A stretch of DNA of 64,000 nucleotides from Candidatus Doudnabacteria bacterium (GCA_963837465.1 CAWINB010000004.1:138853-202852), one strand, 5' to 3'. Positions 14,848-53,194 are shown, counted from the stretch's first letter. Notes: generated by a model from the letters alone, not told the origin. Program-made: numbers and translations.

Positions 14848-15618
14848 ATGGCGGAAAATAATTTTGAATTACAAAAAGCGCTGCTTTCTTTAAATTTCAG
14901 TGAAAAAGAAGCAAATGTTTATTTGGCCCTTTTGGAATTGGGCCAGGGTAGCGTGTCGGAAATCGCGAGGAAGTCCAATATTAACCGGACACACGGGTAT
15001 AATGTGCTGGCCGCGCTTTCTTCGAGAGGATTGGTCAGTATTTCCGGCAAGGAGCCGAAGCAGGAATATGTGGCGGAGTCGCCGGATAAGATTAAAGATA
15101 TGCTTAGGGCGGAAATTAAAAAAAATGAGGGATTTTTAAAACAGGCTGACAATGTAATCCCTAAATTAAAATCCATCCGAACCGTCCGCGGCCGCCCTCA
15201 AGTACGGTTTTACGAAGGCAAAGAGGGATTGAAACAAATTTACGAAGACACACTAACTTCCCACGAAACAATTTTAGCCTATGCCAGCGTGGAAGATACG
15301 CAAAGTACCCTACCGGACTTTTTTCCAAGTTATTATTTTAGACGCGCCGACAAAAATATTCATATTCGGGCGGTGTTTCCTGACACTGCCGAAGCCCGCA
15401 AACTGGTTAAATCCAATAAAATCCAAAAAAGGGAAACGGTATTAGTACCGTCCCAAAAATATTCCTTTTCCCCGGAAATAAATATTTACGACAACAAAGT
15501 TATGATAGCATCGTGGCGGGAAAAGCTTGGTATAACCATAGAAAGCCATGAAATATCCGATGCCATGAAAAAAATATTTGAGTTGGCGTGGATTGGTGCT
15601 AAAAGTTTAGAAAAATAG
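14848..15618 (+). CDS. TrmB-family transcriptional regulator (paralog 1)
   Basis: 256 aa; N-terminal winged-helix EANVYLALLELGQGSVSEIA; C-terminal sugar-binding-like domain; close paralog of 17442-18239. Confidence 0.8.
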   Translation: MAENNFELQKALLSLNFSEKEANVYLALLELGQGSVSEIARKSNINRTHGYNVLAALSSRGLVSISGKEPKQEYVAESPDKIKDMLRAEIKKNEGFLKQADNVIPKLKSIRTVRGRPQVRFYEGKEGLKQIYEDTLTSHETILAYASVEDTQSTLPDFFPSYYFRRADKNIHIRAVFPDTAEARKLVKSNKIQKRETVLVPSQKYSFSPEINIYDNKVMIASWREKLGITIESHEISDAMKKIFELAWIGAKSLEK

Positions 15619-17441: not shown

Positions 17442-18239
17442 ATGATCAAAACCGATTCACCTCTATATAAAGGTTTAATTTTAATTGGCTTTTCGCAAAA
17501 AGAAGCCAGTGTGTATTTGGCTTTGCTGGAATTGGGCAAACGGACCGTTTCTCCAATTGCTCGGTCAGCCAATATTAACCGAACCACGGTTTACGATATT
17601 TTGGCTTCGTTAATAGCAAAAGGCTTGGTAAGCGTTTCGGGAAAAGAACCACTGCAAGAGTACGTGGCGGAGTCGCCGGAAAAAGTTTTAAGGCTAATAC
17701 AAAAGGAAGTGGAAGACAAACAAGAAAATTTAAAAATAGCAGGGGAGTTAGTTCCCCAGCTTAAATCTATTTATAATGTTTCAGATAGGCCCAAGGTAAG
17801 GTTTTACGAAGGCAAAGAAGGGCTTCAGCAAGTTTATGAAGATACTTTAACTTCCCACGAAACAATTTTGGCTTATGCCAACGTAAAAGAAATGCATAGC
17901 GCTTTACCGGATTATTTTCCCAAATATTACAAACGCAGGACTAACCACGGAGTGCGCATACGCGCGATCGTTCCATCAAATAAAGAGGGAGCCGAACGGA
18001 CCAGCAAAGACAATGAAGAAGCGCGCGAGTCCGCCCTTGTCCCTGAAGATAAAGTCTACTTCTCTCCCGAAATTAACATTTATGACAATAAGGTTATGAT
18101 TGCGTCATGGAAGGAAAAACTGGGAATCATTATAGAAAGCAAAGAAATATCGGACGCGATGAAAACTATTTATGAATTAGCCTGGAGCGAAGCCAAAAGA
18201 TTAGAAAAAAGCTTACCAGCTATTGCAAAAATTCCTTAG
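17442..18239 (+). CDS. TrmB-family transcriptional regulator (paralog 2)
   Basis: 265 aa; long identical blocks with paralog 1 (VRFYEGKEGL.QVYEDTLTSHETILAYA, FSPEINIYDNKVMIASW). Confidence 0.8.
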   Translation: MIKTDSPLYKGLILIGFSQKEASVYLALLELGKRTVSPIARSANINRTTVYDILASLIAKGLVSVSGKEPLQEYVAESPEKVLRLIQKEVEDKQENLKIAGELVPQLKSIYNVSDRPKVRFYEGKEGLQQVYEDTLTSHETILAYANVKEMHSALPDYFPKYYKRRTNHGVRIRAIVPSNKEGAERTSKDNEEARESALVPEDKVYFSPEINIYDNKVMIASWKEKLGIIIESKEISDAMKTIYELAWSEAKRLEKSLPAIAKIP

Positions 18240-18854: not shown

Positions 18855-18889
18855 GTTAGTGACAAAAATGACATAATTGACAAAATTGA

Positions 18890-23369: not shown

Positions 23370-26228
23370 ATGCGCGTATACAGTTACAAAACCCCGCAAG
23401 TTGAATCCTCGTCAAAAAGTCCCAAAAAGAAATCCGGGCGGAAACTCAGTTTTAAGTTCGGCAAATTTACCTGGAAGAAATTTTTTACCTGGATATTCCG
23501 CCTGTTCGCCCTGGGCATTGTGCTGGTCGCAGTGCTGTTTTTGTATTACTCCAGGAACCTGCCCGACCCCGACAAACTGCTGACCAGGGACGTGCCGGAG
23601 TCCACCAAAATTTACGCGCGCGACGGCAGCCTGCTTTACGAAATCCACGGCGAATACAAACGCACCGAGATTAACCTAAACCAGGTGCCGCTGCTGGCCC
23701 AGGAAGCGACCATCGCGGTGGAAGACAAAAATTTTTATAAGGAAGGCGGCATTTCTCCCACCGGAATAGTCAGGGCCGCGCTGGCCGATATTTTAAGCCT
23801 GCACAAAAGCGAGGGCGCCAGTACCATTACCCAGCAATTTGTTAAAAACGCGATTTTAACCGACAATAAATCCTGGGACCGCAAAATCCGCGAAGCCATT
23901 TTAGCCATAGCCATAGACGCGCGTTTTTCCAAAAGCCAAATACTGCAGCTGTATTTAAACGAAATCCCTTACGGCCGTAACGCTTACGGCATTGAGGCGG
24001 CGGCTGAAACTTATTTTAATATTCCAGCCGGCAGTCTGGACTTGGCGCAGAGCGCTTACCTCTCGGCCTTAATCCAGGCGCCGACTTTTTACAGTCCTAC
24101 CGGACCCAACCGCGCGGCCCTGGACCAAAGAAAAAATACGGTGCTGGCTTTAATGCGGCAGCAAGGCTACATCACCGCTCTGCAGGAAAAGCAGGCGGCA
24201 AACGAAACTGTAACTTTTTCGGATATCACCAACGGGATTAAAGCCCCGCACTTTGTGCTGTGGGTGGAAAGCTACCTGGCTGCCAAATACGGCGAAGTAA
24301 CTTTGGAGCAGGGCGGTTTGCAGGTCTACACCACGCTCGACCCAAGGCTTCAGACAATTGCCGAAACTGTAGTTAAGGCGGATGTAGCCAAGGAAACAAA
24401 ATATAATGTCGGGAACGCGGCCCTGGTAGCCATAGACCCCAAAACCGGACAGGTGCTGGCCATGGTCGGCAGCAAAGATTACTTTGGCACACCCGAACCC
24501 GCCGGCTGCGTCCCGGGGAAAAATTGCGCCTTTGAACCCGATGTCAACGTCGCCCTTGCCCAGCGCCAGCCAGGATCCAGCTTTAAGCCTTACGTTTACG
24601 CCACCGCTTTTAAAAAAGGCTTTGGTTACGCTCCGGCTTCCATGCTCATGGACGTGGTCACGGATTTTGGCACCTACAACGGCAAAGATTACATTCCCCA
24701 CAATTACAGCGATGAAAGTTACGGGCCGGTCTCCATGCGGCAGGCTTTGGCCGGCAGTTTAAACGTACCCGCGGTTAAAACTCTGGCCTTGGTAGGCGTG
24801 GATAACGCGGTGCAGACAGCGCACGATTTGGGTATTACCAGTCCGCTGCAGGATTGCGGTTTGTCATTGGTTTTAGGCGGCTGCGAAGTGGATTTGCTGG
24901 ACCACGTAGCGGCTTACTCGGTCATTGCCAATGAAGGCGTCAAGAACCCTGAAACCGCGATTTTAAAAATTCTGGATAAAAACGGCAACGTCCTGGAACA
25001 ATACCAGCCCAATCCCCAGGAAGTTCTGGACCCGCAGGATGCCTACGAAATAATCAGCATCCTGACCGACAACAACGCCCGCGCCTTCGTGTTTGGCGCC
25101 AATTCCGCCATGTACATACCAGGCCGTACGGTGGCCGCCAAAACCGGCACCACCCAGAATTTCCGCGACGGCTGGACTTTGGGCTTTACCCCGTCGCTGG
25201 CCGCCGGAGTCTGGGCCGGCAACAACGATGGCGAATTGCTTAAGTCTGGATCCGACGGCGTAGTGGTGGCCGCGCCTATCTGGAAAGATTTTATGGAGCA
25301 GGCTCTGGCCAGCACCACGCCGGAAACTTTTGCCGTACCCCCAGGCATCCAGCAGGTTGTGGTGGATAGCGTTTCCGGCAAATTGCCGACCGACGCCACC
25401 CCCCAGACCAAAACCGAAACCTTTGCCGACTATTCCGTACCCACGGATTTTGACAACGTCCACCAAAAAATCGCTTTTGATGCCACCACCAATCTTCCGG
25501 CCACCAGCCTGACGCCTCCGGCCGACATCACCTATAAACTCTACACGGTGCTGCGCAGCGAAATGCCGAACAATCCCAACTGGGAAGACCCGGTGGAAGC
25601 CTGGGCTTTGGCGCACGGCTACAGTTACCCGCCCGGGGGGGCCGAAGTGGCGCAGCAAACTCCAGGCAACGGCCAGAGCGTTGCCGTGAACATTCTGGAC
25701 CCGTCCGACGGCGAAACAATTTCCCAGGTGCCTTTTGATGTTACGGTAAGCGCGGCCTTCGCCAGCGGCATTGCCCGCGTGGATTTGTCCATAGACGGCC
25801 AATACTACCAAAGCGAAACCTCGGAGCCGTTTGTGTTTACCGTCAACACACCTTTGGACAATGGTCCGCATACGTTGGCCGCGCACGCCGTGGACAACAG
25901 CGGGGCAACAGCCGACACCAGCGCCGGCATTACATTGGATACTGATTCGCCGCTGGTTTTAACCAGTCCGCCGGGCCAGAGCCTACTGCAGTTTCCCGCG
26001 ACTTTAATTGCCGAAGATGAAAAATATTTCAACGCGGTCAATTTTTATTATGAAACGCCGGGAGGTACTCCAACCCTAATCGGCCCGGCCAGCAATATTA
26101 ACCACAGCGAAAACGACTATAATTACAGCTTAACCTGGCAAACTCCGCCGCCTTCCGGCACCTACCAAATTTACGCCCAAAGCGACACGGGAGTTGCCAG
26201 CGTAAAAGTTCAGGTCAGCGTACCGTAA
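23370..26228 (+). CDS. mrcA: class A penicillin-binding protein (PBP1a-type transglycosylase/transpeptidase) with C-terminal Ig-like extension
   Basis: 952 aa; N-terminal TM; glycosyltransferase motifs (EDKNFY, RKIRE); transpeptidase SxxK/SxN/KTG (KTGTT); ~200 aa beta-rich C-terminal extension. Confidence 0.9.
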   Translation: MRVYSYKTPQVESSSKSPKKKSGRKLSFKFGKFTWKKFFTWIFRLFALGIVLVAVLFLYYSRNLPDPDKLLTRDVPESTKIYARDGSLLYEIHGEYKRTEINLNQVPLLAQEATIAVEDKNFYKEGGISPTGIVRAALADILSLHKSEGASTITQQFVKNAILTDNKSWDRKIREAILAIAIDARFSKSQILQLYLNEIPYGRNAYGIEAAAETYFNIPAGSLDLAQSAYLSALIQAPTFYSPTGPNRAALDQRKNTVLALMRQQGYITALQEKQAANETVTFSDITNGIKAPHFVLWVESYLAAKYGEVTLEQGGLQVYTTLDPRLQTIAETVVKADVAKETKYNVGNAALVAIDPKTGQVLAMVGSKDYFGTPEPAGCVPGKNCAFEPDVNVALAQRQPGSSFKPYVYATAFKKGFGYAPASMLMDVVTDFGTYNGKDYIPHNYSDESYGPVSMRQALAGSLNVPAVKTLALVGVDNAVQTAHDLGITSPLQDCGLSLVLGGCEVDLLDHVAAYSVIANEGVKNPETAILKILDKNGNVLEQYQPNPQEVLDPQDAYEIISILTDNNARAFVFGANSAMYIPGRTVAAKTGTTQNFRDGWTLGFTPSLAAGVWAGNNDGELLKSGSDGVVVAAPIWKDFMEQALASTTPETFAVPPGIQQVVVDSVSGKLPTDATPQTKTETFADYSVPTDFDNVHQKIAFDATTNLPATSLTPPADITYKLYTVLRSEMPNNPNWEDPVEAWALAHGYSYPPGGAEVAQQTPGNGQSVAVNILDPSDGETISQVPFDVTVSAAFASGIARVDLSIDGQYYQSETSEPFVFTVNTPLDNGPHTLAAHAVDNSGATADTSAGITLDTDSPLVLTSPPGQSLLQFPATLIAEDEKYFNAVNFYYETPGGTPTLIGPASNINHSENDYNYSLTWQTPPPSGTYQIYAQSDTGVASVKVQVSVP

Positions 26229-26342
26229 GGACTAATGACAAAAACGGCAATCTTTTAAATTTATCATAGTTGTCATCCCGAGTGCATCCGACTTGTCCGC
26301 CGTAGCCTTGGCGAAGGCAGAGGGATCCCTCGCTTCGTTTGG

Positions 26343-26366
26343 GACGGCATTAATGCCGTTTTTGTC
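26343..26366 (+). terminator. intrinsic terminator
   Basis: acggca-ttaa-tgccgt then TTTTTG. Confidence 0.45.
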
Positions 26367-26388
26367 AATTTTGTCATTTTTTTAATTT

Positions 26389-27609
26389 TTGTCATTACTA
26401 TTTATGGATTACCTCCTGCTTCTAACCTTCATCCTTGCCCCGGCCTACGTTATCAGGTTCAATTTCCTGGGTTTTCCCACGGATGTTTTGATGATGTGGA
26501 TATTTTTTGTCTGGTTGGTTTTCTACGGCTGGCTTATTGCGAAAAAAAGATTGGGTGAATTTTTCCGCTTTAAGGAACTTTTGGACCGGAAAGTTTCCGT
26601 CTGGGTCGGCTTATTTTTCCTGTCCGGGATTATTGCGTTACTGGTTGAACATCCAAACAGAGCCAACCTTGGCCAATTCATAGTTTTGTTCTTACAACCA
26701 ATCAGCCTGTTTTTTATCGCGGGTTTTATATTTAAGCAAAGCCCCAAAACCAAGTCCTGGCTACTTGCTACCAGCTACTCGCTACTGGCAATATCCGGTC
26801 TATACGCCATACTCCAGTACTTTACCCTAATCGGGCTGCCCGTAGCCTGGTGGGGCAACAGCGTAGAGCCCAAGCGGGCTTTGGCGTTTTTTGTCCATCC
26901 AAATTTTTACGCGCTATGGTGCGCGCCTTTGCTGGCTCTGCTACTACCGGACATAGGAACCAAGATCAAATCGTGGTCAGCCGTAAATCGTAAATCGTTA
27001 ATGGTTAATCGTTCCTCAGCCCTGGCCTGGCTGCTTGGAGCCATCGGATTATTGCTTTCTTTGTCCCGCTCCGGCTGGCTGGGCTTGTCCGCCGCTATTG
27101 TTGTCTACGTAATAATAGCCGCCGACGCCAAAGTCCGTAAAATTATTTTTGCGCTTGCCGTTGCCGCGGTTTTAATAGTAGCCGCCGTCCCCAACCTGCG
27201 CTGGCGGGTGTTGCTGCCGTTTTACGGGGAAAAGTCAGCCGACTCCAGAATTGAACTGTGGGACGATGGCTTTAAAGGCATAAAACAGTCGCCAATTTTT
27301 GGCATAGGACTCACCGGTTTTGCAAAAGAATACGCCACAATTAATATCGACCCCACTTTAGACCCACACAATTTTCCGCACAACATCTTTTTGGATTTCT
27401 GGGTGGAAACCGGACTGCTTGGCTTAATCAGTTTTGTAGGCCTAGCCTCCCTATTTATTTACCGCGGCCTAAAAAACCGCGGCAATCTCTTTGCCCTTGC
27501 CGTCTCCCTATTCCTAATAGCCCTACTAGCCCAAGGCCAAGTCGACAACCCCTACTTTAAAAACGATTTGGCTTTGGTGTTTTGGATGGTGCTGGCTTTA
27601 GTAATATAA
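26389..27609 (+). CDS. O-antigen ligase / Wzy-family polytopic membrane protein
   Basis: 406 aa, ~10 TM helices; periplasmic loop LSLSRSGWLGLSAAI typical of the Wzy_C domain. Confidence 0.7.
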   Translation: MSLLFMDYLLLLTFILAPAYVIRFNFLGFPTDVLMMWIFFVWLVFYGWLIAKKRLGEFFRFKELLDRKVSVWVGLFFLSGIIALLVEHPNRANLGQFIVLFLQPISLFFIAGFIFKQSPKTKSWLLATSYSLLAISGLYAILQYFTLIGLPVAWWGNSVEPKRALAFFVHPNFYALWCAPLLALLLPDIGTKIKSWSAVNRKSLMVNRSSALAWLLGAIGLLLSLSRSGWLGLSAAIVVYVIIAADAKVRKIIFALAVAAVLIVAAVPNLRWRVLLPFYGEKSADSRIELWDDGFKGIKQSPIFGIGLTGFAKEYATINIDPTLDPHNFPHNIFLDFWVETGLLGLISFVGLASLFIYRGLKNRGNLFALAVSLFLIALLAQGQVDNPYFKNDLALVFWMVLALVI

Positions 27610-27627
27610 TTATGCTATCATAAATTT

Positions 27628-27780
27628 ATGAATCAAAAGCCTCAAGAAAAATCCAATAAAATTAACTTTGAAAAGCTAAGAAAGTTGGCAAAAAAGATTC
27701 GGCAGCAAACGCAAGCAGAAGCAGTCAAATATCCCCAGCAAGAACAGTCCTTAATTTATGGAAACGGCTCTCAAAGATAA
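27628..27780 (+). CDS. small basic ORF overlapping the PIN gene start (candidate antitoxin)
   Basis: 50 aa; overlaps the downstream PIN-domain gene by 23 nt in a different frame; no homology recognised. Confidence 0.3.
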   Translation: MNQKPQEKSNKINFEKLRKLAKKIRQQTQAEAVKYPQQEQSLIYGNGSQR

Positions 27781-28276
27781 AATAGCCAATAAGTTCGTAT
27801 TACTTGATACGGGCGTAATTATTCGCGCATTTGAACACTTCGACAACTTCGAAGCGTTTTTTAAAATGCTGGAAGGTGCCAATTGTAAAAATGTTTATTT
27901 TCCCTTTGTTGAATTTGAATTTTTAAGAGGGGCTTATGAACCATCCCACAAAGTTGATCGTGAGGATTTCTTAAAAGAAATTTCAGGCATTAACTTAAAC
28001 GCTCCAACTCAGGCAATTATCAAAGACGCAATTGCCATAGCGAACTGTTATTCAGCCCGAAAGCATCACTCCGCGTCTTTAACTGACTGCTCAATAGCGG
28101 CCTATTTAAAATCTTATCCGCAAAACCTCTTTCTCGTAACTCTCAACCACAAAGACTTTCCCACCTATCTTTTTGACCGTGTAGGAATTTTTCCAATAGA
28201 CGCCCAAGTCGATATTTTTACCTTGGCCTTTTATACTTACAATAAAACAAAAGCTGAAAAGATTAATTTGAAATAA
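27758..28276 (+). CDS. PIN-domain nuclease (VapC-like toxin fold)
   Basis: 172 aa; acidic residues in LLDTGV, E, LTDCSIAAY, LNHKDF spaced as in PIN domains. Confidence 0.55.
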   Translation: METALKDKIANKFVLLDTGVIIRAFEHFDNFEAFFKMLEGANCKNVYFPFVEFEFLRGAYEPSHKVDREDFLKEISGINLNAPTQAIIKDAIAIANCYSARKHHSASLTDCSIAAYLKSYPQNLFLVTLNHKDFPTYLFDRVGIFPIDAQVDIFTLAFYTYNKTKAEKINLK

Positions 28277-28313
28277 GGACTAAAAAATCCTGGTATATTT
28301 TCTCTGTAAAGAC

Positions 28314-28346
28314 AGGGCGGACCGCATAAACGGTCCGCCCTTTTTG
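28314..28346. terminator. bidirectional intrinsic terminator
   Basis: perfect 11 bp stem agggcggaccg / cggtccgccct with loop cataaa, then TTTTTG. Confidence 0.7.
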
Positions 28347-28351
28347 CCGCA

Positions 28352-28645
28352 TCAAGTCGCCAGTTTGTGCGGGCGATGCAGGGGAGTCAAGTCCCAGACT
28401 GTACCATCGCCGACCCATTCATGGAACATCCCGGGCGGGACAATCCATAAAATAAGCCTGCGATCATCCACAGCTTCAATCGTTTGGCCTGCCTCAGAGC
28501 GCAAATTGAGCGCCTTTGTCAGGTAAAGCGAAAAGAAACTGTGCTTGTGACCGATTGTGGCCTTCGCTATATCTGTCTTACGATAAGCAAACGTAGACAG
28601 AAAGCGAGCAACCACATCGGACAAGACAAACTGCCGAAGTTGCAT
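28352..28645 (-). CDS. hypothetical protein
   Basis: 97 aa ORF bounded by terminators on both sides; no homology recognised. Confidence 0.35.
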   Translation of the reverse strand: MQLRQFVLSDVVARFLSTFAYRKTDIAKATIGHKHSFFSLYLTKALNLRSEAGQTIEAVDDRRLILWIVPPGMFHEWVGDGTVWDLTPLHRPHKLAT

Positions 28646-28797
28646 CTTTTTTCACCTCCTTCTATTGATTCTAAAATTATATACAGACAATTGTATTATG
28701 CCAATAACTTTGGCTAAATTTTTTGACATATTTGACAAAAAACCTCTAAATAAACTACCATAAGCCTATAATAAACCGCCAAAAAATACGTCATATT

Positions 28798-29529
28798 ATG
28801 GAAATTAGTTTAAAAAACCTGTTTAAAGAACTCGGGGTTAACGATGAACAAGCTAAGGTTTATTTGGCGGCTTTGGAGTTGGGACAGGCCAATATGAATG
28901 AGTTGGCTGAAAAGGCCGGGTTAAAAAGAACCAGTGTTTATAATTATGTAGATGAACTTATAGAAAAAAAGTTAATAACTACCGGTAAAAAAAGAAAGCG
29001 CACGGTTTATAGCGCCATTCATCCAAATATGCTTATGGAAATAGAAAAAGCCCGGCTCAGCGAGCTAGAAAGAAATCTGCCGGAACTTTTAGCTGTTTAT
29101 AACAAATCAAAAACCAAACCTAAAGTAACTTTTTATGAAGGCATAAACGGTATAAAAACTGTTTTACAGGATATGCTAAAAGAAAAACAAACAATATCCG
29201 CATTCAGCGATTTTAAACATATGGCCGCGGTATTCGGTGATTATTACTTTGATGTTTTTCCGCCTGAACGGGCCAAGCGGGGGATTGTTTCCCGCAACAT
29301 TGTTCCAGACACGCCAAAAGCCCGTGAGCTGGCAAAAAAAGACGCCCGATATTTGCGCCAAACAAAATTTTTACAAATTCCCGACTTAAAAACTGAAATA
29401 AATATTTACGCCAACAAAGTTGCTCTTAACAGCTACCAAAGTAGTCCGCCCTTTGGAGTAATTATTGAAGATCATGACATAGCGGAAACCCTACGCGCTG
29501 TCTGGCAACAGCTTTGGAATAGAATTTAA
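28798..29529 (+). CDS. TrmB-family transcriptional regulator (paralog 3)
   Basis: 243 aa; same architecture as the other TrmB paralogs (QAKVYLAALELGQANMNELA winged helix; C-terminal EINIYANKVAL). Confidence 0.75.
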   Translation: MEISLKNLFKELGVNDEQAKVYLAALELGQANMNELAEKAGLKRTSVYNYVDELIEKKLITTGKKRKRTVYSAIHPNMLMEIEKARLSELERNLPELLAVYNKSKTKPKVTFYEGINGIKTVLQDMLKEKQTISAFSDFKHMAAVFGDYYFDVFPPERAKRGIVSRNIVPDTPKARELAKKDARYLRQTKFLQIPDLKTEINIYANKVALNSYQSSPPFGVIIEDHDIAETLRAVWQQLWNRI

Positions 29530-29613
29530 TACTATCTAAGAGGCCATAAAGGTTCCTGCCACCTTTACTTTTCTGATATGGCTTTAACCATCTACTTATG
29601 TAAAAATATAAAT

Positions 29614-29877
29614 ATGACTCAAAAGTATTATAAAAGAATTATTATTGACCAAAAAGTTATGGTCGGCAAACCGGTTATTAAAGGCACCCGAATTACCGTG
29701 GAGTTAATTTTGCGTTTTTTGTCCCAGGGGCAAACCGTTACGGAGATTTTAAAAAATTATCCGCATTTGGAAGCCGAGGATGTTTACGCGGCCATTGAAT
29801 ACGCCACTGAACTGGTGGAAGAACAAACTGTTTTTCCGCTAAATCATACTTATGCAAAAACCAAAGCTGCTGCTTGA
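29614..29877 (+). CDS. DUF433-family protein
   Basis: start at Met 29614; KPVIKGTRITVELILRFLSQGQTVTEIL..YP.L..EDVYAAIEYA matches DUF433. Confidence 0.6.
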   Translation: MTQKYYKRIIIDQKVMVGKPVIKGTRITVELILRFLSQGQTVTEILKNYPHLEAEDVYAAIEYATELVEEQTVFPLNHTYAKTKAAA

Positions 29878-29953
29878 AATTTAATATTCAAACAGCACCG
29901 GGGAAAACTGAAAAACAAATTCGTCGCCGCCACAGAAACAAAAATCCGCCTGC

Positions 29954-30028
29954 GTTAATATCGCAAGGCCAAGTCGACAATCCTTACTTTAAAAATGATT
30001 TAGCGCTGGTATTTTGGATAGTTCCATC
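29954..30028 (+). pseudogene. duplicated 3'-terminal fragment of the O-antigen ligase gene (att-like direct repeat)
   Basis: ~80 percent identical over 75 nt to 27532-27609 (17-mer caaggccaagtcgacaa identical); encodes QGQVDNPYFKNDLALVFW like the end of the ligase. Confidence 0.7.
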
Positions 30029-30044
30029 TCTTGCATAATTTTTT

Positions 30045-30578
30045 ATGGAAGCTCAAGAATTTGACAAACTAAGCCAATTTCAAACTGCATCGTTTGCTCT
30101 TTGGGATCCTGAGGATATTACAAATATCGAATATATCAAATCTCTCATCTCCCAACTTAATTCTCGTTTTATTATTCTTGGATTAAATCCTTCTGGCAAA
30201 ATGGGTTTTTTAAAAAATTTTCATTACGGTAGATATGATATCTGGTACCAAGAAGTGTTTTCACAATCTCCATTTAAAGGATGCTATATGAGCGACTTCA
30301 TTTCCTATTCTGGGGTAAAGGCATCTCAAGTGATGAAAAAATGGAAAAAAGATGAAAAATTCAGAAATAAAAACATAAAAAATTTAAGAAAACAGTTTGG
30401 AATTCTGAAAATAAAAAAATCTGCGACATTTATATGTATTGGAAAAAGCACTTGGGATTTATTTCAAAAATCCTTTCCTTTATACATAAAAGTGTTTTAC
30501 CTAAAGCACCCAAATACCCCTGGAACAACGCGAGCGAATTTTATAAATGAAGTACATAAGATTACAAAAAAGTTATAA
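30045..30578 (+). CDS. hypothetical protein (AT-rich gene)
   Basis: 177 aa; visibly lower GC than flanking genes; no homology recognised. Confidence 0.4.
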   Translation: MEAQEFDKLSQFQTASFALWDPEDITNIEYIKSLISQLNSRFIILGLNPSGKMGFLKNFHYGRYDIWYQEVFSQSPFKGCYMSDFISYSGVKASQVMKKWKKDEKFRNKNIKNLRKQFGILKIKKSATFICIGKSTWDLFQKSFPLYIKVFYLKHPNTPGTTRANFINEVHKITKKL

Positions 30579-30608
30579 TAAAACACCTTTCGCTAGTTGA
30601 AGGGTGTT

Positions 30609-31079
30609 TTATGCTTTTGCTCTTATGACAACTTTCCTGTAGGGTTCGTTGCCGAGGCTGCTGCTTTCTATTTCTGGGTGGTTTTCCTGGAGGTAGGCGT
30701 GGATGAGGCGGCGTTCGTAGTTGGGCATTGGTTCTAAGGCTTGGGCGCGGCCGGTGTTTTTGGCTTTTTGGGCCGCGGCTTTGGCGGTTTCTTTTAAGAA
30801 CCATTCGCGCTTTCTTTTGTAATCATCCACGTCCAGGGTAAACCAAAACGGTTCCGGCGAGTTTAGCTTCTTGCCGGCCAAAGCCTGGACCAAAATCTGC
30901 AAAGCGTGCAGTGTGGCGCCTTGTTTGCCTATAAGTAAATAGGAATCGGGCGAACTGATATTAAACACCAACCCTTTGGTAATACTGTCTTCAAATTCCA
31001 CGCTGCCGGAAATACCGCACTGCTCCAGCAATTCGGTAACAACATTTTTTACTATTTCGATTTTGTTGTAGTCGGTCAT
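30609..31079 (-). CDS. jag: Jag/KhpB-like RNA-binding protein (Jag-N, KH, R3H)
   Basis: start at internal Met (MTDYNKIEIV); C-terminal R3H block RRLIHAYLQENHPEIESSSLGNEPYRKVVI; position downstream of yidC as in the conserved rpmH-rnpA-yidD-yidC-jag cluster. Confidence 0.75.
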   Translation of the reverse strand: MTDYNKIEIVKNVVTELLEQCGISGSVEFEDSITKGLVFNISSPDSYLLIGKQGATLHALQILVQALAGKKLNSPEPFWFTLDVDDYKRKREWFLKETAKAAAQKAKNTGRAQALEPMPNYERRLIHAYLQENHPEIESSSLGNEPYRKVVIRAKA

Positions 31080-31137
31080 TGGGTAAGGAAGGGGATAGGG
31101 ATTAGGGTATAGGGAGGGGGTAGTATGCAGGGGGCGC

Positions 31138-31875
31138 TTATGAGACAACCGTGACTTTCGGTTGCTGCCTTATTATATAGTACTGCTGGCCTACGGCAAA
31201 CAAAGTGGTAACAACCCAGTAAAGCGGCAAACCGGCCGGAAGCCTTAGGGCAATAACAATGCTGATTACGGGCAAAACATAAGTAGTCTGCATGGTTAAA
31301 GCCTTAACCGTAGCGTCCTGCTGGCCGCTGACTTTGGGCATAAGAAGTTTTGATTGCCAAAATTGCGCGAGACCCGCCAGCACAGCCAATATCCAGCTGG
31401 GGCTGGATAAATTAATAATCTTTAAGAAGTACGGACTGATGCTTTTGGGAGCCGGCACAAATTTGTACAAGCCCTGCAAGCGCTGGGCAATATTCAAAGC
31501 CGGATTCAGAGCCACCCTAAATGCCTGGTACAGGCCAATTAAGATTGGCAACTGTATAACCAGGGGCAGACAGGAAGCAAAGGGGTTGATCTTATTTTCT
31601 TTATAAAGCTCCATCATAGCCTTGGCCTGGCCTTCTTTATCATCTTTATATTTTTCCCGCACCGCGTTGAGCTTGGGCTGCAAATCATTCATAGCCCTCT
31701 GGCTTTTTATGGACCGGCTAAAACTGGGCGCCAAAACCAAACGGATTAAGATAGTCAAAAGAATAATAACTACCCCAATATCATGTCCCGGAATGATATT
31801 GTAAAAAAACACCAGCAAATTTAAAAGCGGGCGGTAAATGACGTCGTTATAAGCAATTACGATAGCGTGAAGCAT
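31138..31875 (-). CDS. yidC: membrane protein insertase YidC (short form)
   Basis: ~245 aa with 5 TM helices, conserved YidC C-terminal region; start chosen at second Met to avoid overlap with yidD. Confidence 0.8.
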   Translation of the reverse strand: MLHAIVIAYNDVIYRPLLNLLVFFYNIIPGHDIGVVIILLTILIRLVLAPSFSRSIKSQRAMNDLQPKLNAVREKYKDDKEGQAKAMMELYKENKINPFASCLPLVIQLPILIGLYQAFRVALNPALNIAQRLQGLYKFVPAPKSISPYFLKIINLSSPSWILAVLAGLAQFWQSKLLMPKVSGQQDATVKALTMQTTYVLPVISIVIALRLPAGLPLYWVVTTLFAVGQQYYIIRQQPKVTVVS

Positions 31876-32164: not shown

Positions 32165-32505
32165 CTTATTTTATTTAAAAGCTGTAAAAAGTAGCTTAGC
32201 CTGTCAGCTTCGGGCAAACGCGAGACTTTTGGCTTGGCCATAATCATATAGTCGCCTTTTTTAAAATCTCCCATATTCTTGCGTAAATTTTCCCTGATTA
32301 TCCTCTTTAAGCGGTTTCTGGCCACCGCCGCTTTAAAGACTTTTGTTGAAACCACAACAGCAAAACGGGGAGACCCGGACGCCGAGGCCAAAAACTTGAT
32401 ATTGTAAAAAGGGTTAAAAAAAGTCCGCCCTCTGGCAAACGCAGTTTGAATGTCTTTGTCTTTGGCCAGGCGGTTTTTTTTGTGAAGCATAGCGAGAAAT
32501 GACAA
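32161..32505 (-). CDS. rnpA: ribonuclease P protein component
   Basis: 114 aa, basic; ARNRLKRIIRE motif; located between rpmH and yidD. Confidence 0.8.
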   Translation of the reverse strand: MSFLAMLHKKNRLAKDKDIQTAFARGRTFFNPFYNIKFLASASGSPRFAVVVSTKVFKAAVARNRLKRIIRENLRKNMGDFKKGDYMIMAKPKVSRLPEADRLSYFLQLLNKIR

Positions 32506-32596
32506 AAGTTAAAAAAATAATAAAAATGACAAAAATATCTGTTCCCACATTTTTTTAACTTTTATTATTTTTGCTCATTTTTGTCATGTCCTTAGG

Positions 32597-44628: not shown

Positions 44629-45405
44629 TTAGCTTTTAATTTTTTCGGCCGGACAAAAATCCCAAATTAGGTTAAACCAGGTGCGGAAGGTATCGGCTAA
44701 TTGAGGATGCTTCATTACAAAAATAGTTACGTTCTCGCCGACGTTGCCAATATCCACGCTGGTAAAGGTAACTATGTAATCGCCGAACATATCGGTTACT
44801 CCGGGTGTGGGATATTTTTTTGGCAAAATTTTGTATTCGCCTCCGACATTCTTGATCGCTTCGGGGATGCGTTCTTTTACGCGGTAATCGTAAAGTGTAA
44901 AATATTTTTTGTTTTTACGCTTCATTGCGGCCTGAAAATCTTCCAGGTACTGTCTGTCTATGCTGGGCGTGAACCACAAAGCTTTGGCGCCTAAAAAATA
45001 AGTGTCTTCGGCCACACGAGTCATATCGCGCATATAATTTTTATAACCTTCCAGACCTTTATAAATGTAAGCCGCTTCTTGTAAAGGTGTGCTTTGGTAA
45101 AGTTTGTTTAAGTCCGGTAAAATTTGGAATAATTTTTTTTCCTTTTCTTCCAAAACCTCGGCAAGTTTGTTAGGCGTAACGGCCCTGAATTGGTTCTCCC
45201 CTTTTTGGAAAATCCGAAAAACCAATCCTTTTTCTATAAGCCGGTTTAAAGCATCATAAACATTCCGCCTATGCACATTGGCCTTAAGCGAAATATCCGA
45301 AACCCCGACTTCCCCGGCAGAAAGCAAAGTCTCATAAATCTTAGCCTCATTAGGACTAAGCCCAATTTCCTCAAAAACCTCTGTGTACATAAAGTTCGGT
45401 GTCAT
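44629..45405 (-). CDS. TrmB-family transcriptional regulator (paralog 4)
   Basis: 258 aa; NEAKIYETLLSAGEVGVSDIS winged helix plus TrmB-like C-terminal domain; true start may be the second Met. Confidence 0.75.
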   Translation of the reverse strand: MTPNFMYTEVFEEIGLSPNEAKIYETLLSAGEVGVSDISLKANVHRRNVYDALNRLIEKGLVFRIFQKGENQFRAVTPNKLAEVLEEKEKKLFQILPDLNKLYQSTPLQEAAYIYKGLEGYKNYMRDMTRVAEDTYFLGAKALWFTPSIDRQYLEDFQAAMKRKNKKYFTLYDYRVKERIPEAIKNVGGEYKILPKKYPTPGVTDMFGDYIVTFTSVDIGNVGENVTIFVMKHPQLADTFRTWFNLIWDFCPAEKIKS

Positions 45406-49811: not shown

Positions 49812-49873
49812 AAATACTAATGAGCAAAAATGACAAAATTGACATAAATGAACAAAAATAATCGCACTTTAGT

Positions 49874-51770
49874 TTACGTCGTTTTATCGCTATCCTTTAC
49901 TTCCTTGAATTCCGCGTCTACCGGTCCTTGGTTGCCGGGATTTGGCCCGCTTGCTTGATTTTGGTCCGCTCCGACATTCTGATTACTCTGATTCTCCGAT
50001 TTCCCGGATTCATACATCGCGGCCCCCACTTTTTGCACGGCTTCGCTTAAAGCGTCCAAAGCTTTTTTTATGCCGTCCAAATCGTCTTTATCTTTTACAT
50101 CTTTAAGCGCCTTAATTTTTTCCTCAAGCGCGGTTTTGTCTTCGGGCTTGGCTTTGCCTTCGGCGTCTTTTAAAGTTTTTTCGGAAACGGAAATTAAAGT
50201 ATCGGCCTGGTTTCTCGTATCCACGGTTTCTTTGCGCTTGCGGTCTTCTTCGGCGTGGGTTTCCGCTTCTTTTTTCATGCGTTCCACATCTTCCTTGGAC
50301 AAATTGGAAGAGCCCTGAATGGTAATTTTTTGCTCCTTGCCGCTGGCTTTGTCTTTGGCTTTAACTGTTAAAATGCCGTTGGCGTCTATATCAAACGTCA
50401 CTTCCACCTGCGGCACGCCCCTGGGAGCCGGCGGCAGGCCGTCCAGAATAAAGTTGCCCAAAGATTTATTGTCTTTGGCGAATTCGCGCTCGCCCTGCAG
50501 CACGTGGATTTCCACCGAGGTTTGGTTGTCTCCGGCCGTGGAAAAGACCTGGCTTTTGGAGGCCGGTATGGTGGTGTTCCTGTCTATTAAAGGTGTCCTT
50601 ACGCCGCCCAAAGTTTCCAGGCCTAAAGTCAAAGGCGTAACGTCCAAAAGCAAAATTTCCTTGCCGCCGGCTTCGCCGCTTAACACGCCGGCCTGCACGG
50701 CCGCGCCTTTGGCCACGGCCTCCATCGGGTCAATGCCGCCTTCCACCTGTTTGCCAATGTAGGTTTCCACGAACTGTTTTACGGCCGGCATACGGGTTGG
50801 GCCGCCGATTAAAATAATTTTGTTGATGTCCCGCGGAGTCAGCTTGGCGTCATTAAGCGCCTGCTCCACTGGTTTTCTCATCCGTTCCACAATCGGCTTA
50901 ACCAGTTCTTCCAGCTTGGAGCGGGTAATTTTTATCTGCAGAATGCTTTGGTCCGCTGGCATCGGCGGTAATAAACGGCAGATTGATGTCGGTTTCCATT
51001 GTCGTGGACAGTTCTATCTTGGCTTTTTCCGCGGCTTCGCGCACGCGGTTCATGGCCATTTTGTCGGAGGAGATGTCCACCCCGCTGCTGGCTTTAAAAT
51101 CGCCCACAATGTAATTAATCAAAGCCGTGTCCATGTCTTTTCCGCCCAAAGCCGTATCGCCGGAAGTGGATTTGACTTCAAAGGTGGCCTGGTTGTCCAC
51201 TTCGGAAAAATCCATAATGGTTACGTCCAAAGTTCCGCCGCCCAAATCAAACACCAGGATTTTTTGGTCTTTGGACGAAGACTTGTCCAGGCCGTAGGCA
51301 AAGGCCGCGGCCGTGGGTTCGTTAATGACGCGCACCACTTCCAAACCCGCTATCTCGCCGGCGTTTTTGGTGGCCTGTCTTTGTGAGTCGTCAAAATAAG
51401 CCGGGACTGTAATAACCGCTTTTGAAACCGGGCCGCCCAAAAATGTTTCCGCGTCCTTTTTGATTTTTTGGAGGATGAAAGCGGAAATCTGTTCAGGCGA
51501 ATACTCCTTGCCATTGATGTTATAGCGGAAATTCGTGCCCATCTTTCTTTTTGCTTCAAAAATAGTGCCTTCCGGATTGGTTACTGCCTGTCTTCTGGCA
51601 GGCTCGCCAACCAAAAGCTGACCTTCCTTGGTAAAAGCCACATAAGACGGAAAAGCCTTCCCGCCCAAACTCGCGCCCTCCGCCGCCGGAATAATAGTCG
51701 CCTTCCCGCCCTCCATAACCGCCGCGGCGCTGTTAGATGTCCCTAAATCTATCCCTATAATTTTTGCCAT
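49874..51770 (-). CDS. dnaK: molecular chaperone DnaK (Hsp70), reading frame interrupted by a 1-nt insertion near 50942
   Basis: N-terminal ORF 50898-51770 ([14 protein letters not shown]...) and C-terminal ORF 49874-50962 (...[13 protein letters not shown]...) are contiguous DnaK in two frames; joining requires deleting one base in ggaccaaagcaTtctgcag. Confidence 0.85.
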
Positions 51771-52357: not shown

Positions 52358-53194
52358 TTAATTTAATTTTTTAATTTCCCTCCTCGGTAAAAAATTCTGT
52401 CCGCTTACGACTTTTTTCCCGGTCTGTTGTTCTAAGGCTTTGCGGGCATTGCCGGAAATGCGGCCGCCTTTTTGGGCGGCGATGGCGTTTGGTGTGTAGC
52501 CTTTGGCTTGGTCGGTTTGGGCAATTTGCCTTGTGGAGAGTTCGGCGAGCGATGTAAATATCAGTTCCGCGTCTGTCATGTTGTCCCGCAGGTTGTGCTG
52601 TTTTAAACCTTTTAGTTTTTTATGCTGGCCGGTGGTCAGGCCGCTCCACTCCATATGGATTATGTCCGTCAGGCTGGCGTATTCCTGTCCTTCTTTTACC
52701 CCGGCTTCGCTCCAATAGTCCGTCAGCTTGTTTCTTATTTCCTGACCGCGCATCCGCATCTCAATCCACTTAGCCGATCTTCCCGCAGCGAGCCAGTGTT
52801 TGCGCGCGCGGTTTACGGCCAATTCGGGATTCACGGTTTCCTGTATTCGCTCGTAACCAACTTTAGCCAGCCATGTTTTAAAAGGTTCGGCTTTGGGGGA
52901 TGGAATGCTTTGAATAATTCGTAAAACGGACTCGGTATCCCCCATGTCCGTTGGTCGTTTTTTGCCGTCTTCGGCTATAATTTTCAACTGTACGATTTTT
53001 TCGTACAGTTCACTTCCCTCTTGCTTAAGCTTAATTTTAAGATCAGACCAATATCTTCTGGGAATAGAACTGTCTGTTAAAATCGCGACAATGTCAACTA
53101 CGCTAAAAAACCACTTTTCTTGTTTTCCATCCCAAACCCGCCGTACCGGCGCGTCTTGAAAATTTATTATGGATTTTGGGTCTTGGTTTGGCAT
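52358..53194 (-). CDS. DinD-like / Bro-N domain protein (DNA-damage-inducible protein D family)
   Basis: 278 aa; N-terminal INFQDAPVRRVWDGKQEKWFFSVVDIVAIL resembles the Bro-N fold; central KAEPFKTWLAKVGYERIQETVNPELAVNRA and C-terminal region resemble DinD. Confidence 0.5.
   Translation of the reverse strand: MPNQDPKSIINFQDAPVRRVWDGKQEKWFFSVVDIVAILTDSSIPRRYWSDLKIKLKQEGSELYEKIVQLKIIAEDGKKRPTDMGDTESVLRIIQSIPSPKAEPFKTWLAKVGYERIQETVNPELAVNRARKHWLAAGRSAKWIEMRMRGQEIRNKLTDYWSEAGVKEGQEYASLTDIIHMEWSGLTTGQHKKLKGLKQHNLRDNMTDAELIFTSLAELSTRQIAQTDQAKGYTPNAIAAQKGGRISGNARKALEQQTGKKVVSGQNFLPRREIKKLN

What the first reader, a model, noticed from the sequence alone, without database searches (positions are those of the whole stretch)
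27532..30028. ~2.4 kb insertion bounded by a direct repeat of the O-antigen-ligase 3' end, carrying a PIN toxin and regulators
The last ~78 nt of the ligase gene (27532-27609) are repeated at 29954-30028 (~80 percent identity, identical 17-mer caaggccaagtcgacaa). The repeat has an intact stop codon and encodes ...QGQVDNPYFKNDLALVFW. This is the classic scar of a site-specific integration into a gene's 3' end, where the element supplies a replacement gene terminus (attL/attR-like). The cargo is a small overlapping ORF, a PIN-domain nuclease, a hypothetical gene, TrmB paralog 3 and a DUF433 protein. No integrase is present, so this is a remnant or an element mobilised in trans.
Basis: seen in the sequence. 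Interest (0 to 1): 0.7.

Follow-up and report, generated by a model that had tools for sequence, protein, structure and literature searches.

The report
Displaced gene end in a recombination hot spot
A real second copy of the last 25 codons of a cell-envelope gene marks where foreign DNA was spliced into that gene's end in a tiny uncultured bacterium, but the DNA between the copies is a patchwork of separately moving toxin-antitoxin modules with no integrase, so this is an ordinary though instructive scar.

Summary
The repeat is real. Window 27524-27590 recurs at 29956-30022 (67 nt, 84%). It matches a profile of 85 ligase 3' ends at E=5e-22. The two copies differ at 8 synonymous and 1 non-synonymous site (pS 0.71, pN 0.02). 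They therefore come from two long-diverged functional ligase genes, not from an in-place duplication.

The window is the oriC region of a Candidatus Doudnabacteria genome, with a conserved order PBP1a, Wzy_C ligase, variable slot, jag, yidC, rnpA, dnaA. In 22 of 61 related loci the slot is empty. In the rest it holds unrelated cargo.

The "2.4 kb element" is not one unit:
- orf50-PIN is a two-gene module found elsewhere, and in a different order in relative L101.
- DUF433 plus a previously unnoticed deleted DUF5615 toxin plus the ligase fragment is shared with L060/L102/L103, where the other neighbours differ.
- Two other species (L010, L015) carry displaced ligase ends with different breakpoints.

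In L102/L103, L015 and L010 the displaced end still abuts the gene that neighbours the ligase in relatives.

No integrase was found in 99 slot ORFs or in 40 of the largest window ORFs.

Best reading: integrase-independent, homology-anchored insertion ("C-terminal displacement") in a recombination hot spot. Site-specific integration by a recombinase acting in trans remains possible, because of the identical 17-mer and the joint shared with L060.

The parts
26404..27609 (+). Wzy_C / O-antigen-ligase-like membrane protein gene, intact (an alternative TTG start lies at 26389)
   Evidence: Pfam Wzy_C E=6e-26. It is syntenic between PBP1a and jag in about 95 Doudnabacteria loci.
27532..27609 (+). 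Left copy of the repeat: the terminus now used by the ligase (QGQVDNPYFKNDLALVFWMVLALVI*)
   Evidence: The C-terminal motif is near-invariant across the family.
27532..27548 (+). 17-nt block identical to 29964-29980, at the inner edge of the repeat; candidate crossover or conversion tract
   Evidence: The block is shared by only 0.9% of all pairs, and 2.4% of pairs at 80-90% identity, among between-species ligase ends.
27628..27780 (+). orf50, a small upstream partner that overlaps the PIN gene by 23 nt (putative antitoxin)
   Evidence: A 47-55 aa overlapping ORF sits upstream of the PIN homologue in L098, L100 and L101; tblastn matches W's orf50 in L098, L099 and L101. No family hit.
27758..28276 (+). 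PIN-like protein (172 aa), putative toxin of the orf50-PIN pair
   Evidence: Pfam PIN E=2.9e-4, below the curated cut-off. NCBIfam VapC E=0.0027. 13 homologues, found in unrelated contexts.
28352..28645 (-). orf97, hypothetical. It has a strong promoter-like site (28704-28676, 11 of 12 matches) and a GGAGGTG ribosome-binding site upstream
   Evidence: No family hit. Absent from all fetched loci.
28798..29529 (+). TrmB-family winged-helix regulator, one of four paralogues in the window
   Evidence: Pfam TrmB E=8e-13. It is 87% identical over its C-terminal 89 codons to the TrmB of L101, where it precedes orf50-PIN.
29614..29877 (+). DUF433 (COG2442) protein, now an orphan antitoxin
   Evidence: Pfam DUF433 E=5e-24. 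84% nt identity to L060 3856-4116, with 23 of 28 four-fold sites identical.
29852..29958 (+). Remnant of the DUF5615 / PIN-like toxin gene. The start plus 10 codons are kept, about 246 nt are deleted, and the last 27 codons remain out of frame (..HRGKLKNKFVAATETKIRLR*)
   Evidence: blastn against L060, where the 117-aa gene is intact. DUF5615 E=3e-22 for the L060 protein.
29964..30038 (+). Displaced ligase 3' terminus (QGQVDNPYFKNDLALVFWIVPSLA*), 5 nt after the toxin stop codon
   Evidence: nhmmer E=5.4e-22. pS 0.71 and pN 0.02 against the terminus in use.
30045..30578 (+). ORF177, a divergent UDG-superfamily protein with GC about 0.30. It starts 6 nt after the stop of the displaced terminus
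   Evidence: Homologues carry PF03167. GC profile. Absent from all other ligase-jag slots.
30578..30612 (+). Terminator-like hairpin between the convergent genes ORF177 and jag
   Evidence: (I25).
30609..31148 (-). jag (KH plus R3H domains), the conserved right border of the variable slot
   Evidence: Pfam; synteny.

Best explanation
The interval between the Wzy_C ligase gene and jag, next to oriC, is a gene-insertion hot spot in Candidatus Doudnabacteria.

In this lineage, DNA from a diverged relative was recombined in using the highly conserved ligase 3' region as the homologous anchor. That DNA carried a ligase 3' end followed by cargo. The other end joined inside the recipient's last 25 codons. 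This could have happened by an illegitimate join, or equivalently by a single RecA-type crossover of a circularised fragment.

The result is a ligase with a new but equivalent terminus, then the cargo, and then the recipient's old terminus still attached to its old downstream neighbour.

Later exchanges reshuffled the cargo. What now lies between the copies is a mosaic: an orf50-PIN pair, orf97, a TrmB regulator, and a DUF433/DUF5615 toxin-antitoxin pair whose toxin has since been deleted.

Shown: the copies come from different functional ligase genes; the slot is variable; the cargo is mosaic; other species have displaced ends with different breakpoints; no recombinase was found.

Inferred: the enzymology (RecA-dependent and integrase-free) and the order of events.
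For: 1. The copies differ at 8 of about 11 synonymous sites but at only 1 of about 49 non-synonymous sites. An in-place duplication followed by decay of one copy is rejected (P=7e-4), and so is neutral drift of both copies (P=1e-5).
2. The last 60 nt of the ligase average 75% nt identity across species, against window medians of about 52-68% along the rest of the gene. This makes it the best available anchor right at the slot.
3. Slot length ranges from -20 to 3238 nt. 22 of 61 loci are empty, and the cargo in the others is unrelated: aldo-keto reductase, TrmB, UbiA, a restriction-modification pair and toxin-antitoxin pairs.
4. Displaced ligase ends also occur in L010 (profile positions 6-132), L015 (72-134) and L060/L102 (from 37), so there are three different breakpoints.
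5. In L102/L103 and L015 the displaced end keeps the junction to the gene that follows the ligase in relatives: the aldo-keto reductase in L102/L103 and UbiA in L015. In L010 it lies just before jag.
6. Mosaicism between W and L060: four-fold sites are 37% identical in the ligase but 82% identical in DUF433.
7. Mosaicism between L060 and L102: DUF433 is 98% identical, DUF5615 90%, and the fragment about 70%.
8. L101 has the order TrmB, orf50, PIN, jag, which differs from the window.
9. No integrase, recombinase or transposase family was detected in 99 slot ORFs or in 40 of the largest window ORFs.
10. No copy of the ligase end was found on viral contigs, and the region has no match in the phage or plasmid collections.
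11. Precedent exists for homology-facilitated illegitimate recombination leaving orphaned 3' ends in Rhs and T6SS loci (PMC5361080).
12. DNA uptake and competence genes are reported as common in Patescibacteria (PMC12455944).
Against: - No donor and no strain-level empty site were found, so the joint cannot be inspected for microhomology.
- The 17-nt identity at the inner edge of the repeat is unusual. A purely illegitimate join does not predict it.
- W and L060/L102 share the same joint, yet their fragments differ at 8 of about 11 synonymous sites and abut different downstream genes. Under this model that requires a second homologous exchange to have refreshed the fragment.
- Only 5 of about 39 filled slots show a detectable displaced end. 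Most cargo therefore probably entered by ordinary double crossover, or the scars have decayed beyond detection.
- A sliding-window comparison found no donor tract inside the ligase, but the relatives are too distant for this to be informative.
Confidence: 0.5

Rival explanations
1. Site-specific integration. A small integrase-less element ending in the DUF433/DUF5615 pair carries an attP containing a copy of the ligase terminus. A recombinase supplied in trans integrates it at a core within CAAGGCCAAGTCGACAA. The element supplies the new terminus (attL) and displaces the host's terminus (attR).
For: - The anatomy fits: unrelated sequence, then a 17-nt identical block, then diverged homologous sequence.
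- The identical block at that exact position is rare among between-species pairs, at 0.9-2.4%.
- W and L060/L102 have the same joint, with the toxin stop followed by 5 nt and then CAAGG. Their fragments nevertheless differ at synonymous sites, and each abuts a different downstream gene at close spacing (an aldo-keto reductase in L102, ORF177 in W). That is what independent integrations at one site would give.
- L101 shows a circular permutation of the cargo order.
Against: - No recombinase was found in the element, in any of 99 slot ORFs, or in 40 of the largest window ORFs.
- The left halves of the supposed elements in W and L060 are unrelated; their TrmB proteins are only 27% identical.
- The 5 nt on the element side of the core differ at 4 of 5 positions between W and L060, although the adjacent toxin end is 88% identical.
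- L060 has no identical core; only 12 of 17 positions match.
- L010 and L015 have other breakpoints, and in L015 the toxin-antitoxin pair is inverted.
- No free or phage-borne copy was found.
Confidence: 0.27
2. Relic of a second, tandem ligase gene. The genome once carried two ligase genes in a row, one of them a paralogue or a gene acquired from another lineage. An internal deletion removed all but the last 25 codons of the downstream copy.
For: The fragment derives from a functional, deeply diverged ligase gene. It also keeps a compact junction to its downstream gene.
Against: None of about 95 loci carries two full ligase genes in tandem. The fragment begins exactly at a toxin-antitoxin gene's stop codon, and the same joint occurs in L060/L102. 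In outcome this scenario is hard to distinguish from displacement.
Confidence: 0.08
3. Local duplication. The ligase end was duplicated in place, as a target-site duplication, a replication slip or a template switch during insertion, and the spare copy then decayed.
For: In L015 the displaced tail (VVFWMVLSLAI*) closely resembles that genome's own ligase tail (MVFWMVLSLSI*). A local origin is therefore possible there.
Against: In the window, 8 of the 9 differences are synonymous and the spare copy still encodes the family consensus. P=7e-4 under a model in which one copy is neutral and the other constrained. The two copies are no closer to each other (85%) than ligase ends from different species.
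Confidence: 0.03
4. Assembly artefact. A chimeric join of two strains' ligase ends was created during metagenome assembly.
For: The genome is a metagenome assembly, and repeats of about 70 nt can misjoin. Three related contigs (L104-L106) end right after the toxin gene.
Against: An independent Logan assembly of run ERR10755945 gives the identical 3.7 kb structure. The same architecture (TrmB, DUF433, DUF5615, ligase fragment) recurs in three other assemblies from other samples (L060, L102, L103).
Confidence: 0.02

Closest known systems
icd::e14 / phage 21 type integration into the 3' end of a protein-coding gene (E. coli)
   Same: There is a direct repeat of the gene's 3' end. The functional gene uses a replacement terminus. 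The two termini differ almost only at synonymous sites, and a short identical block sits at the inner edge (PMC4759930).
   Different: e14 encodes its own integrase and is a unitary prophage with a precise empty site. Here there is no recombinase, the content is mosaic, the exact empty site was not seen, and other species have other breakpoints.
C-terminal displacement at Rhs, CDI and T6SS effector-immunity loci, proposed to occur by homology-facilitated illegitimate recombination (PMC5361080 and the Jackson et al. 2009 reference cited there)
   Same: A conserved upstream coding region acts as the anchor. New 3' end plus cargo is inserted, and the old 3' end is pushed downstream and kept as an orphan. 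No integrase is involved. The arrays are later shuffled by ordinary homologous recombination.
   Different: The displaced part here is not a variable toxin domain with an immunity gene. It is the conserved tail of a Wzy_C envelope protein. The cargo is toxin-antitoxin pairs and regulators, the host is a Patescibacteria (candidate phyla radiation) genome of about 0.87 Mb, and the locus lies beside oriC.
PIN-COG2442 (DUF433) VapBC-type toxin-antitoxin systems, e.g. VapBC10 of Synechocystis (PMC3834315; Makarova et al. 2009, PMC2701414)
   Same: A DUF433 gene is followed by an overlapping PIN-like (DUF5615) gene. The pair is intact in L060, L102-L106, L019 and L015.
   Different: In the window the toxin is deleted and frameshifted, leaving an orphan antitoxin. 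No activity has been tested in any of these organisms.
Flexible genomic islets between conserved core genes, exchanged by homologous recombination
   Same: The flanks are conserved (PBP1a and ligase on one side; jag, yidC and dnaA on the other). Content varies from 0 to 3.2 kb. Sequence identity is mosaic between lineages.
   Different: Classical islets leave no duplicated gene end. Here at least three independent events did.

Membership tests
Integrase-mediated integrative element at a gene's 3' end (icd::e14 type) | Direct repeat of the target gene's 3' end bounding the insert, with the gene kept intact by a replacement terminus | tested here: met
Integrase-mediated integrative element at a gene's 3' end (icd::e14 type) | Identical core at the crossover point in both att sites | tested here: inconclusive
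   The 17-mer is identical in W and rare among between-species pairs (0.9-2.4%). In L060 the same joint has only 12 of 17 matches. No core is visible in L010 or L015.
Integrase-mediated integrative element at a gene's 3' end (icd::e14 type) | Element-encoded tyrosine or serine recombinase, or a remnant of one | tested here: not met
   No such Pfam or NCBIfam hit in the cargo, in 99 slot ORFs of related loci, or in 40 of the largest window ORFs.
Integrase-mediated integrative element at a gene's 3' end (icd::e14 type) | Unitary element: the same content between the repeats elsewhere, and an empty site lacking exactly that content | tested here: not met
   The left and right parts have different partners in L101 and in L060/L102. 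No locus has the ligase followed directly by ORF177.
Integrase-mediated integrative element at a gene's 3' end (icd::e14 type) | The same breakpoint in independent insertions | tested here: inconclusive
   W and L060/L102 share one breakpoint. L010 and L015 use others: profile positions 6, 37 and 72.
C-terminal displacement by homology-anchored (HFIR-like) recombination | A conserved anchor sequence immediately upstream of the variable region | tested here: met
   The last 60 nt of the ligase average 75% nt identity across about 98 ends. Gene-wide window medians are 52-68%.
C-terminal displacement by homology-anchored (HFIR-like) recombination | Old 3' end retained downstream as an orphan, still joined to its former neighbour | tested here: met
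   In L102 the fragment is followed after 4 nt by the aldo-keto reductase gene, as at the ligase-reductase junctions of L016, L022 and L063. In L015 the remnant abuts UbiA as in L007. In L010 the fragment abuts jag. In W the fragment is followed after 6 nt by ORF177.
C-terminal displacement by homology-anchored (HFIR-like) recombination | The old and new ends come from different lineages | tested here: met
   pS 0.71 and pN 0.02. The two copies are 85% identical, within the between-species range.
C-terminal displacement by homology-anchored (HFIR-like) recombination | Illegitimate joint with microhomology to the donor; donor identified | not testable with these tools
   No donor or near-identical relative was found. 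The best ligase identity is 68%.
Type II toxin-antitoxin modules (VapBC-like / PIN-COG2442) | Two small adjacent or overlapping co-oriented genes whose pairing is conserved across genomes | tested here: met
   orf50 and PIN overlap by 23 nt. A 47-55 aa overlapping ORF precedes the PIN homologue in L098, L100 and L101, and tblastn matches W's orf50 in L098, L099 and L101. DUF433-DUF5615 pairs occur in L015, L019, L060 and L102-L108.
Type II toxin-antitoxin modules (VapBC-like / PIN-COG2442) | Recognisable toxin domain | tested here: inconclusive
   For the 172-aa protein, PIN scores 21.9 bits against a cut-off of 23.6 and VapC gives E=0.0027. In the window the DUF5615 toxin is deleted and frameshifted.
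Type II toxin-antitoxin modules (VapBC-like / PIN-COG2442) | Toxicity that is neutralised by the partner protein | not testable with these tools
   This needs expression experiments. The precedent is VapBC10 (PMC3834315).

The most novel reading that the evidence does not exclude
A family of very small, recombinase-less cassettes ends in a DUF433/DUF5615 toxin-antitoxin pair. These cassettes insert repeatedly and site-specifically at one position (codon ~377, CAAGG...) of the Wzy_C ligase gene beside oriC in Doudnabacteria. Each brings a replacement gene terminus and is moved by a host recombinase in trans through a circular intermediate. Three observations fit this reading: the identical joint in W and L060/L102 despite fragments that differ at synonymous sites and have different downstream genes; the 17-nt identical core; and the circularly permuted gene order in L101.
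Probability: 0.2. Interest if true: 0.65.

Novelty: new member of a known kind. Interest (0 to 1): 0.35.

Why it matters
The finding shows, at single-nucleotide resolution, how streamlined genomes of the candidate phyla radiation (Patescibacteria) gain and reshuffle accessory genes without recognisable mobile-element machinery.

A conserved gene end beside the replication origin serves as the landing pad. Toxin-antitoxin pairs are the most frequent passengers, and the old gene ends are left behind as datable scars.

These scars offer a practical marker for tracing gene flow between uncultured lineages.

If the site-specific reading proved right, it would add an integrase-less integrative cassette to a phylum where mobile elements are poorly known. 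As it stands, this is an example of a known type of scar rather than a new system.

Tried and rejected
1. A possible third, older ligase-tail remnant just upstream of DUF433 (29563-29613). By eye it resembles the ligase-tail-plus-promoter of L019 and L104. nhmmer gives no hit in W and only E=1.3 in L102. Most of the similarity is the shared TGnTAnAAT promoter. Not claimed.

2. Chimerism inside the ligase. A sliding-window nearest-neighbour analysis against about 55 ligases gave no consistent switch. The relatives share at most 78% identity in any window. Uninformative.

3. RNA genes or riboswitches in the window, L060 or L010. There were no Rfam hits at gathering thresholds.

4. An element-borne copy of the ligase end. 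A degenerate pattern for DNPYFKNDL(A) found nothing in 2.9 million viral contigs. The DUF5615 toxin has no viral relatives. Region 27500-30100 has no match in the phage or plasmid collections.

5. Closer relatives. One genome scan and one metagenome scan found ligases at 68% identity at best. The contig of the closest PIN homologue (82%) had no DNA available.

6. Other DUF433 homologues at 66-72% identity (L107-L109) sit in unrelated contexts with no ligase fragment. The pairing with the ligase is therefore specific to Doudnabacteria.

7. The GC-rich palindromic element upstream of the ligase as a recombination site. The motif tested is single-copy in the window. Only its AT-rich TTTGTCA part recurs, at promoters. 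No link to the repeat was found.

Full report
**1. Observation.**
The repeat is real. Window 27524-27590 recurs at 29956-30022 (67 nt, 84% identity). It is the longest direct repeat in the surrounding 6 kb. Read in the ligase frame, codons 27532-27591 and 29964-30023 differ at 9 of 60 nt. Eight differences are synonymous and one changes Met to Ile. The first 17 nt are identical. The second copy ends in its own stop codon at 30036-30038. A profile of 85 ligase 3' ends hits 29952-30043 at E=5.4e-22. An independent Logan assembly (L001) reproduces the ligase, cargo and fragment.

**2. Genomic setting.**
The window is the oriC region of a Candidatus Doudnabacteria (Patescibacteria) genome. Its contig is 868 kb long. 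The gene order is tyrS, PBP1a (23370-26228), Wzy_C ligase (26404-27609), a 3.0 kb interval, jag (30609-31148, minus strand), yidC, yidD, rnpA, dnaA, dnaN.

One genome scan and one metagenome scan recovered about 95 related loci with the same flanks. The distance from the ligase stop to the jag stop ranges from -20 to 3238 nt. In 22 of the 61 loci that hold both genes, that distance is at most 120 nt.

The filled slots hold unrelated genes. These include aldo-keto reductases, a different TrmB type, UbiA-like proteins, a methylase-nuclease pair, an RHH/HigB pair and DUF433/DUF5615 pairs. The interval is therefore a variable slot. GC content drops from about 0.5 in the flanks to 0.30-0.43 from 27600 to 30600, which includes ORF177 to the right of the repeat.

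**3. What lies between the copies.**
- orf50 (27628-27780) overlaps a 172-aa PIN-like gene (27758-28276) by 23 nt. The PIN assignment is weak: 21.9 bits against a cut-off of 23.6, and VapC at E=0.0027.
- A small partner recurs with the PIN homologue. An overlapping ORF of 47-55 aa precedes it in L098, L100 and L101, and W's orf50 matches by tblastn in L098, L099 and L101. L098-L100 are unrelated contexts.
- orf97 (minus strand) has a strong promoter-like site and a ribosome-binding site, but no homologue in any fetched locus.
- The TrmB gene (28798-29529) is one of four paralogues in the window.
This is the start (29852-29884, MQKPKLLLEI*) and the out-of-frame last 27 codons (29878-29958) of a DUF5615/PIN-like toxin gene.
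- In L060 that toxin gene is intact at 117 aa (DUF5615 E=3e-22). The window lacks about 246 nt of it.
- PIN-COG2442 pairs are validated toxin-antitoxin systems in Synechocystis (PMC3834315). The window therefore keeps an orphan antitoxin.
- The displaced ligase end starts 5 nt after the toxin stop codon.

**4. The two copies come from different functional genes.**
By the Nei-Gojobori method there are 11.3 synonymous and 48.7 non-synonymous sites. Eight synonymous and one non-synonymous site differ, giving pS 0.71 and pN 0.02.

Two simple models fail. A local duplication with one copy decaying gives P=7e-4. Both copies drifting neutrally gives P=1e-5.

The ligase tail is extremely conserved in the family, with the motif QGxxDNPYFKNDLAxVFW. 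Its last 60 nt average 75% identity between species, and the 95th percentile is 87%. The window's two copies, at 85%, are no closer to each other than ends from two different species.

The spare copy still encodes the family consensus. It must therefore have been part of a working ligase gene until recently, or it has been refreshed since.

**5. The insert is a mosaic, not one element.**
- L060, whose ligase is 58% identical to the window's by tblastn, carries TrmB (27% identical to the window's), then DUF433, DUF5615 and a decayed ligase fragment. The joint is the same as in the window. The block is 81-84% identical at the nucleotide level.
- Four-fold degenerate sites between W and L060 are 37% identical in the ligase but 82% identical in DUF433. 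The toxin-antitoxin block was therefore exchanged long after the two hosts diverged.
- L102 and L103 are 91% identical to L060. In them the fragment is followed after 4 nt by an aldo-keto reductase gene. That junction matches the ligase-to-reductase junctions of L016, L022 and L063.
- Between L060 and L102, identity falls from 98% in DUF433 to 90% in the toxin and about 70% in the fragment. Recombination breakpoints therefore lie inside the block.
- The closest relative, L101 (jag 80%, TrmB 87%), has the order TrmB, orf50, PIN, jag. That is a different and circularly permuted order.

**6. Other displaced ends.**
The profile search found extra ligase ends only in W, L060 (and L102/L103), L010 and L015.
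- L010 keeps about 42 codons after a 95-aa ORF and just before jag.
- L015 keeps about 12-20 codons after an inverted DUF5615/DUF433 pair. This remnant abuts the UbiA gene, which in L007 follows the ligase directly.

That makes three breakpoints, at profile positions 6, 37 and 72. In L102/L103, L015 and L010 the orphan stays next to the gene that neighbours the ligase in relatives. In the window it sits 6 nt before ORF177, for which no relative offers a comparison.

**7. No recombinase.**
No integrase, recombinase or transposase family was hit in any of the following:
- the cargo;
- 99 slot ORFs from about 50 loci;
- 40 of the largest ORFs of the window.

No copy of the ligase end exists on 2.9 million viral contigs. 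The region has no match in the phage or plasmid collections.

**8. Mechanism.**
The best fit is integrase-independent, homology-anchored insertion.
- The conserved ligase 3' region anchors DNA from a relative that carries a ligase end plus cargo.
- The far end joins inside the recipient's last codons. This could be an illegitimate join, or a single crossover of a circularised fragment.
- The old end is pushed downstream.
- Ordinary homologous recombination later shuffles the array.

This is the "C-terminal displacement" model proposed for Rhs and T6SS effector-immunity loci (PMC5361080). Competence genes are reported as common in Patescibacteria (PMC12455944). I give this explanation 0.5.

**9. 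What keeps the site-specific model alive (0.27).**
- The 17-nt identity sits exactly at the inner edge of the repeat. Only 0.9-2.4% of between-species pairs share that 17-mer.
- The synonymous-difference signature equals that of icd::e14 (PMC4759930).
- W and L060/L102 share the joint. Yet their fragments differ at 8 of about 11 synonymous sites and abut different downstream genes.

Independent landings at one site would explain the third point directly. My preferred model needs a later exchange of the fragment-to-jag segment.

Four observations count against the site-specific model:
- No recombinase was found.
- The left halves of the supposed elements are unrelated.
- 4 of the 5 nt on the element side of the joint differ between W and L060.
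- Breakpoints and orientation differ in L010 and L015.

**10. Verdict.**
The finding is a new member of a known kind of scar and is of moderate interest.

Noticed in passing
window 29852-29958: Deleted and frameshifted DUF5615/PIN-like toxin gene next to an intact DUF433 gene, leaving an orphan antitoxin.
   Followed up: yes
window 49874-50962 and 50898-51770: dnaK is split into two overlapping ORFs, both matching HSP70. This is either a frameshift or a sequencing error in an essential chaperone gene.
   Followed up: no
window 52358-53194: An ORF with a BRO-N domain, a domain typical of phages, sits inside the hrcA-grpE-dnaK-dnaJ cluster between dnaK and grpE.
   Followed up: no
window 26236-26397; also 18864-18885, 32498-32535, 49826-49844, 28724-28741: A perfect 14-nt inverted repeat (26236-26249 / 26354-26367) encloses a GC-rich element of about 100 nt between PBP1a and the ligase. 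The adjacent TTTTGTCA..TTTGTCA motif recurs at other promoters, upstream of the ligase in L011 and L024, and inverted in the TrmB promoter. It may be an operator or a tandem -35 motif.
   Followed up: partly
window 14848-15618, 17442-18239, 28798-29529, 44629-45405: Four TrmB-family paralogues lie within 64 kb of a genome of about 0.87 Mb. TrmB genes also recur in the ligase-jag slot of 13 related loci.
   Followed up: partly
window 30045-30578: ORF177 is a divergent UDG-superfamily protein with very low GC (0.30). Only 7 homologues were found in 5.8 billion proteins, and it is absent from every other ligase-jag slot.
   Followed up: partly
L095:2-535: An inverted internal piece of PBP1a (residues 515-620) lies next to an isolated ligase 3' end, followed by jag. 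This is either a rearrangement or a chimeric contig.
   Followed up: no
L104, L105, L106 (contig ends): Three independent contigs carrying ligase, DUF433 and DUF5615 all stop within a few nt of the toxin stop codon. This is what would be expected if a near-identical ligase-end repeat follows and breaks the assembly.
   Followed up: no
L020:9177-9299, L062, L096: In these species the ligase ORF reads through its usual stop into a shared '..SPIHGE..' extension. This suggests a small element inserted at the ligase 3' end.
   Followed up: no
L064:7435-9011; L032:1186-1761: Other slot contents include an N6/N4 DNA methylase with a MutH/MvaI-like nuclease (a restriction-modification pair) and an RHH plus HigB-like pair placed directly after the ligase.
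   Followed up: partly
L003 and L006: Two contigs of one MAG (binchicken_co3_512) each carry a ligase-jag-yidC locus, with ligases 66% and 57% identical to the query. The bin is probably a mixture of two organisms.
   Followed up: no
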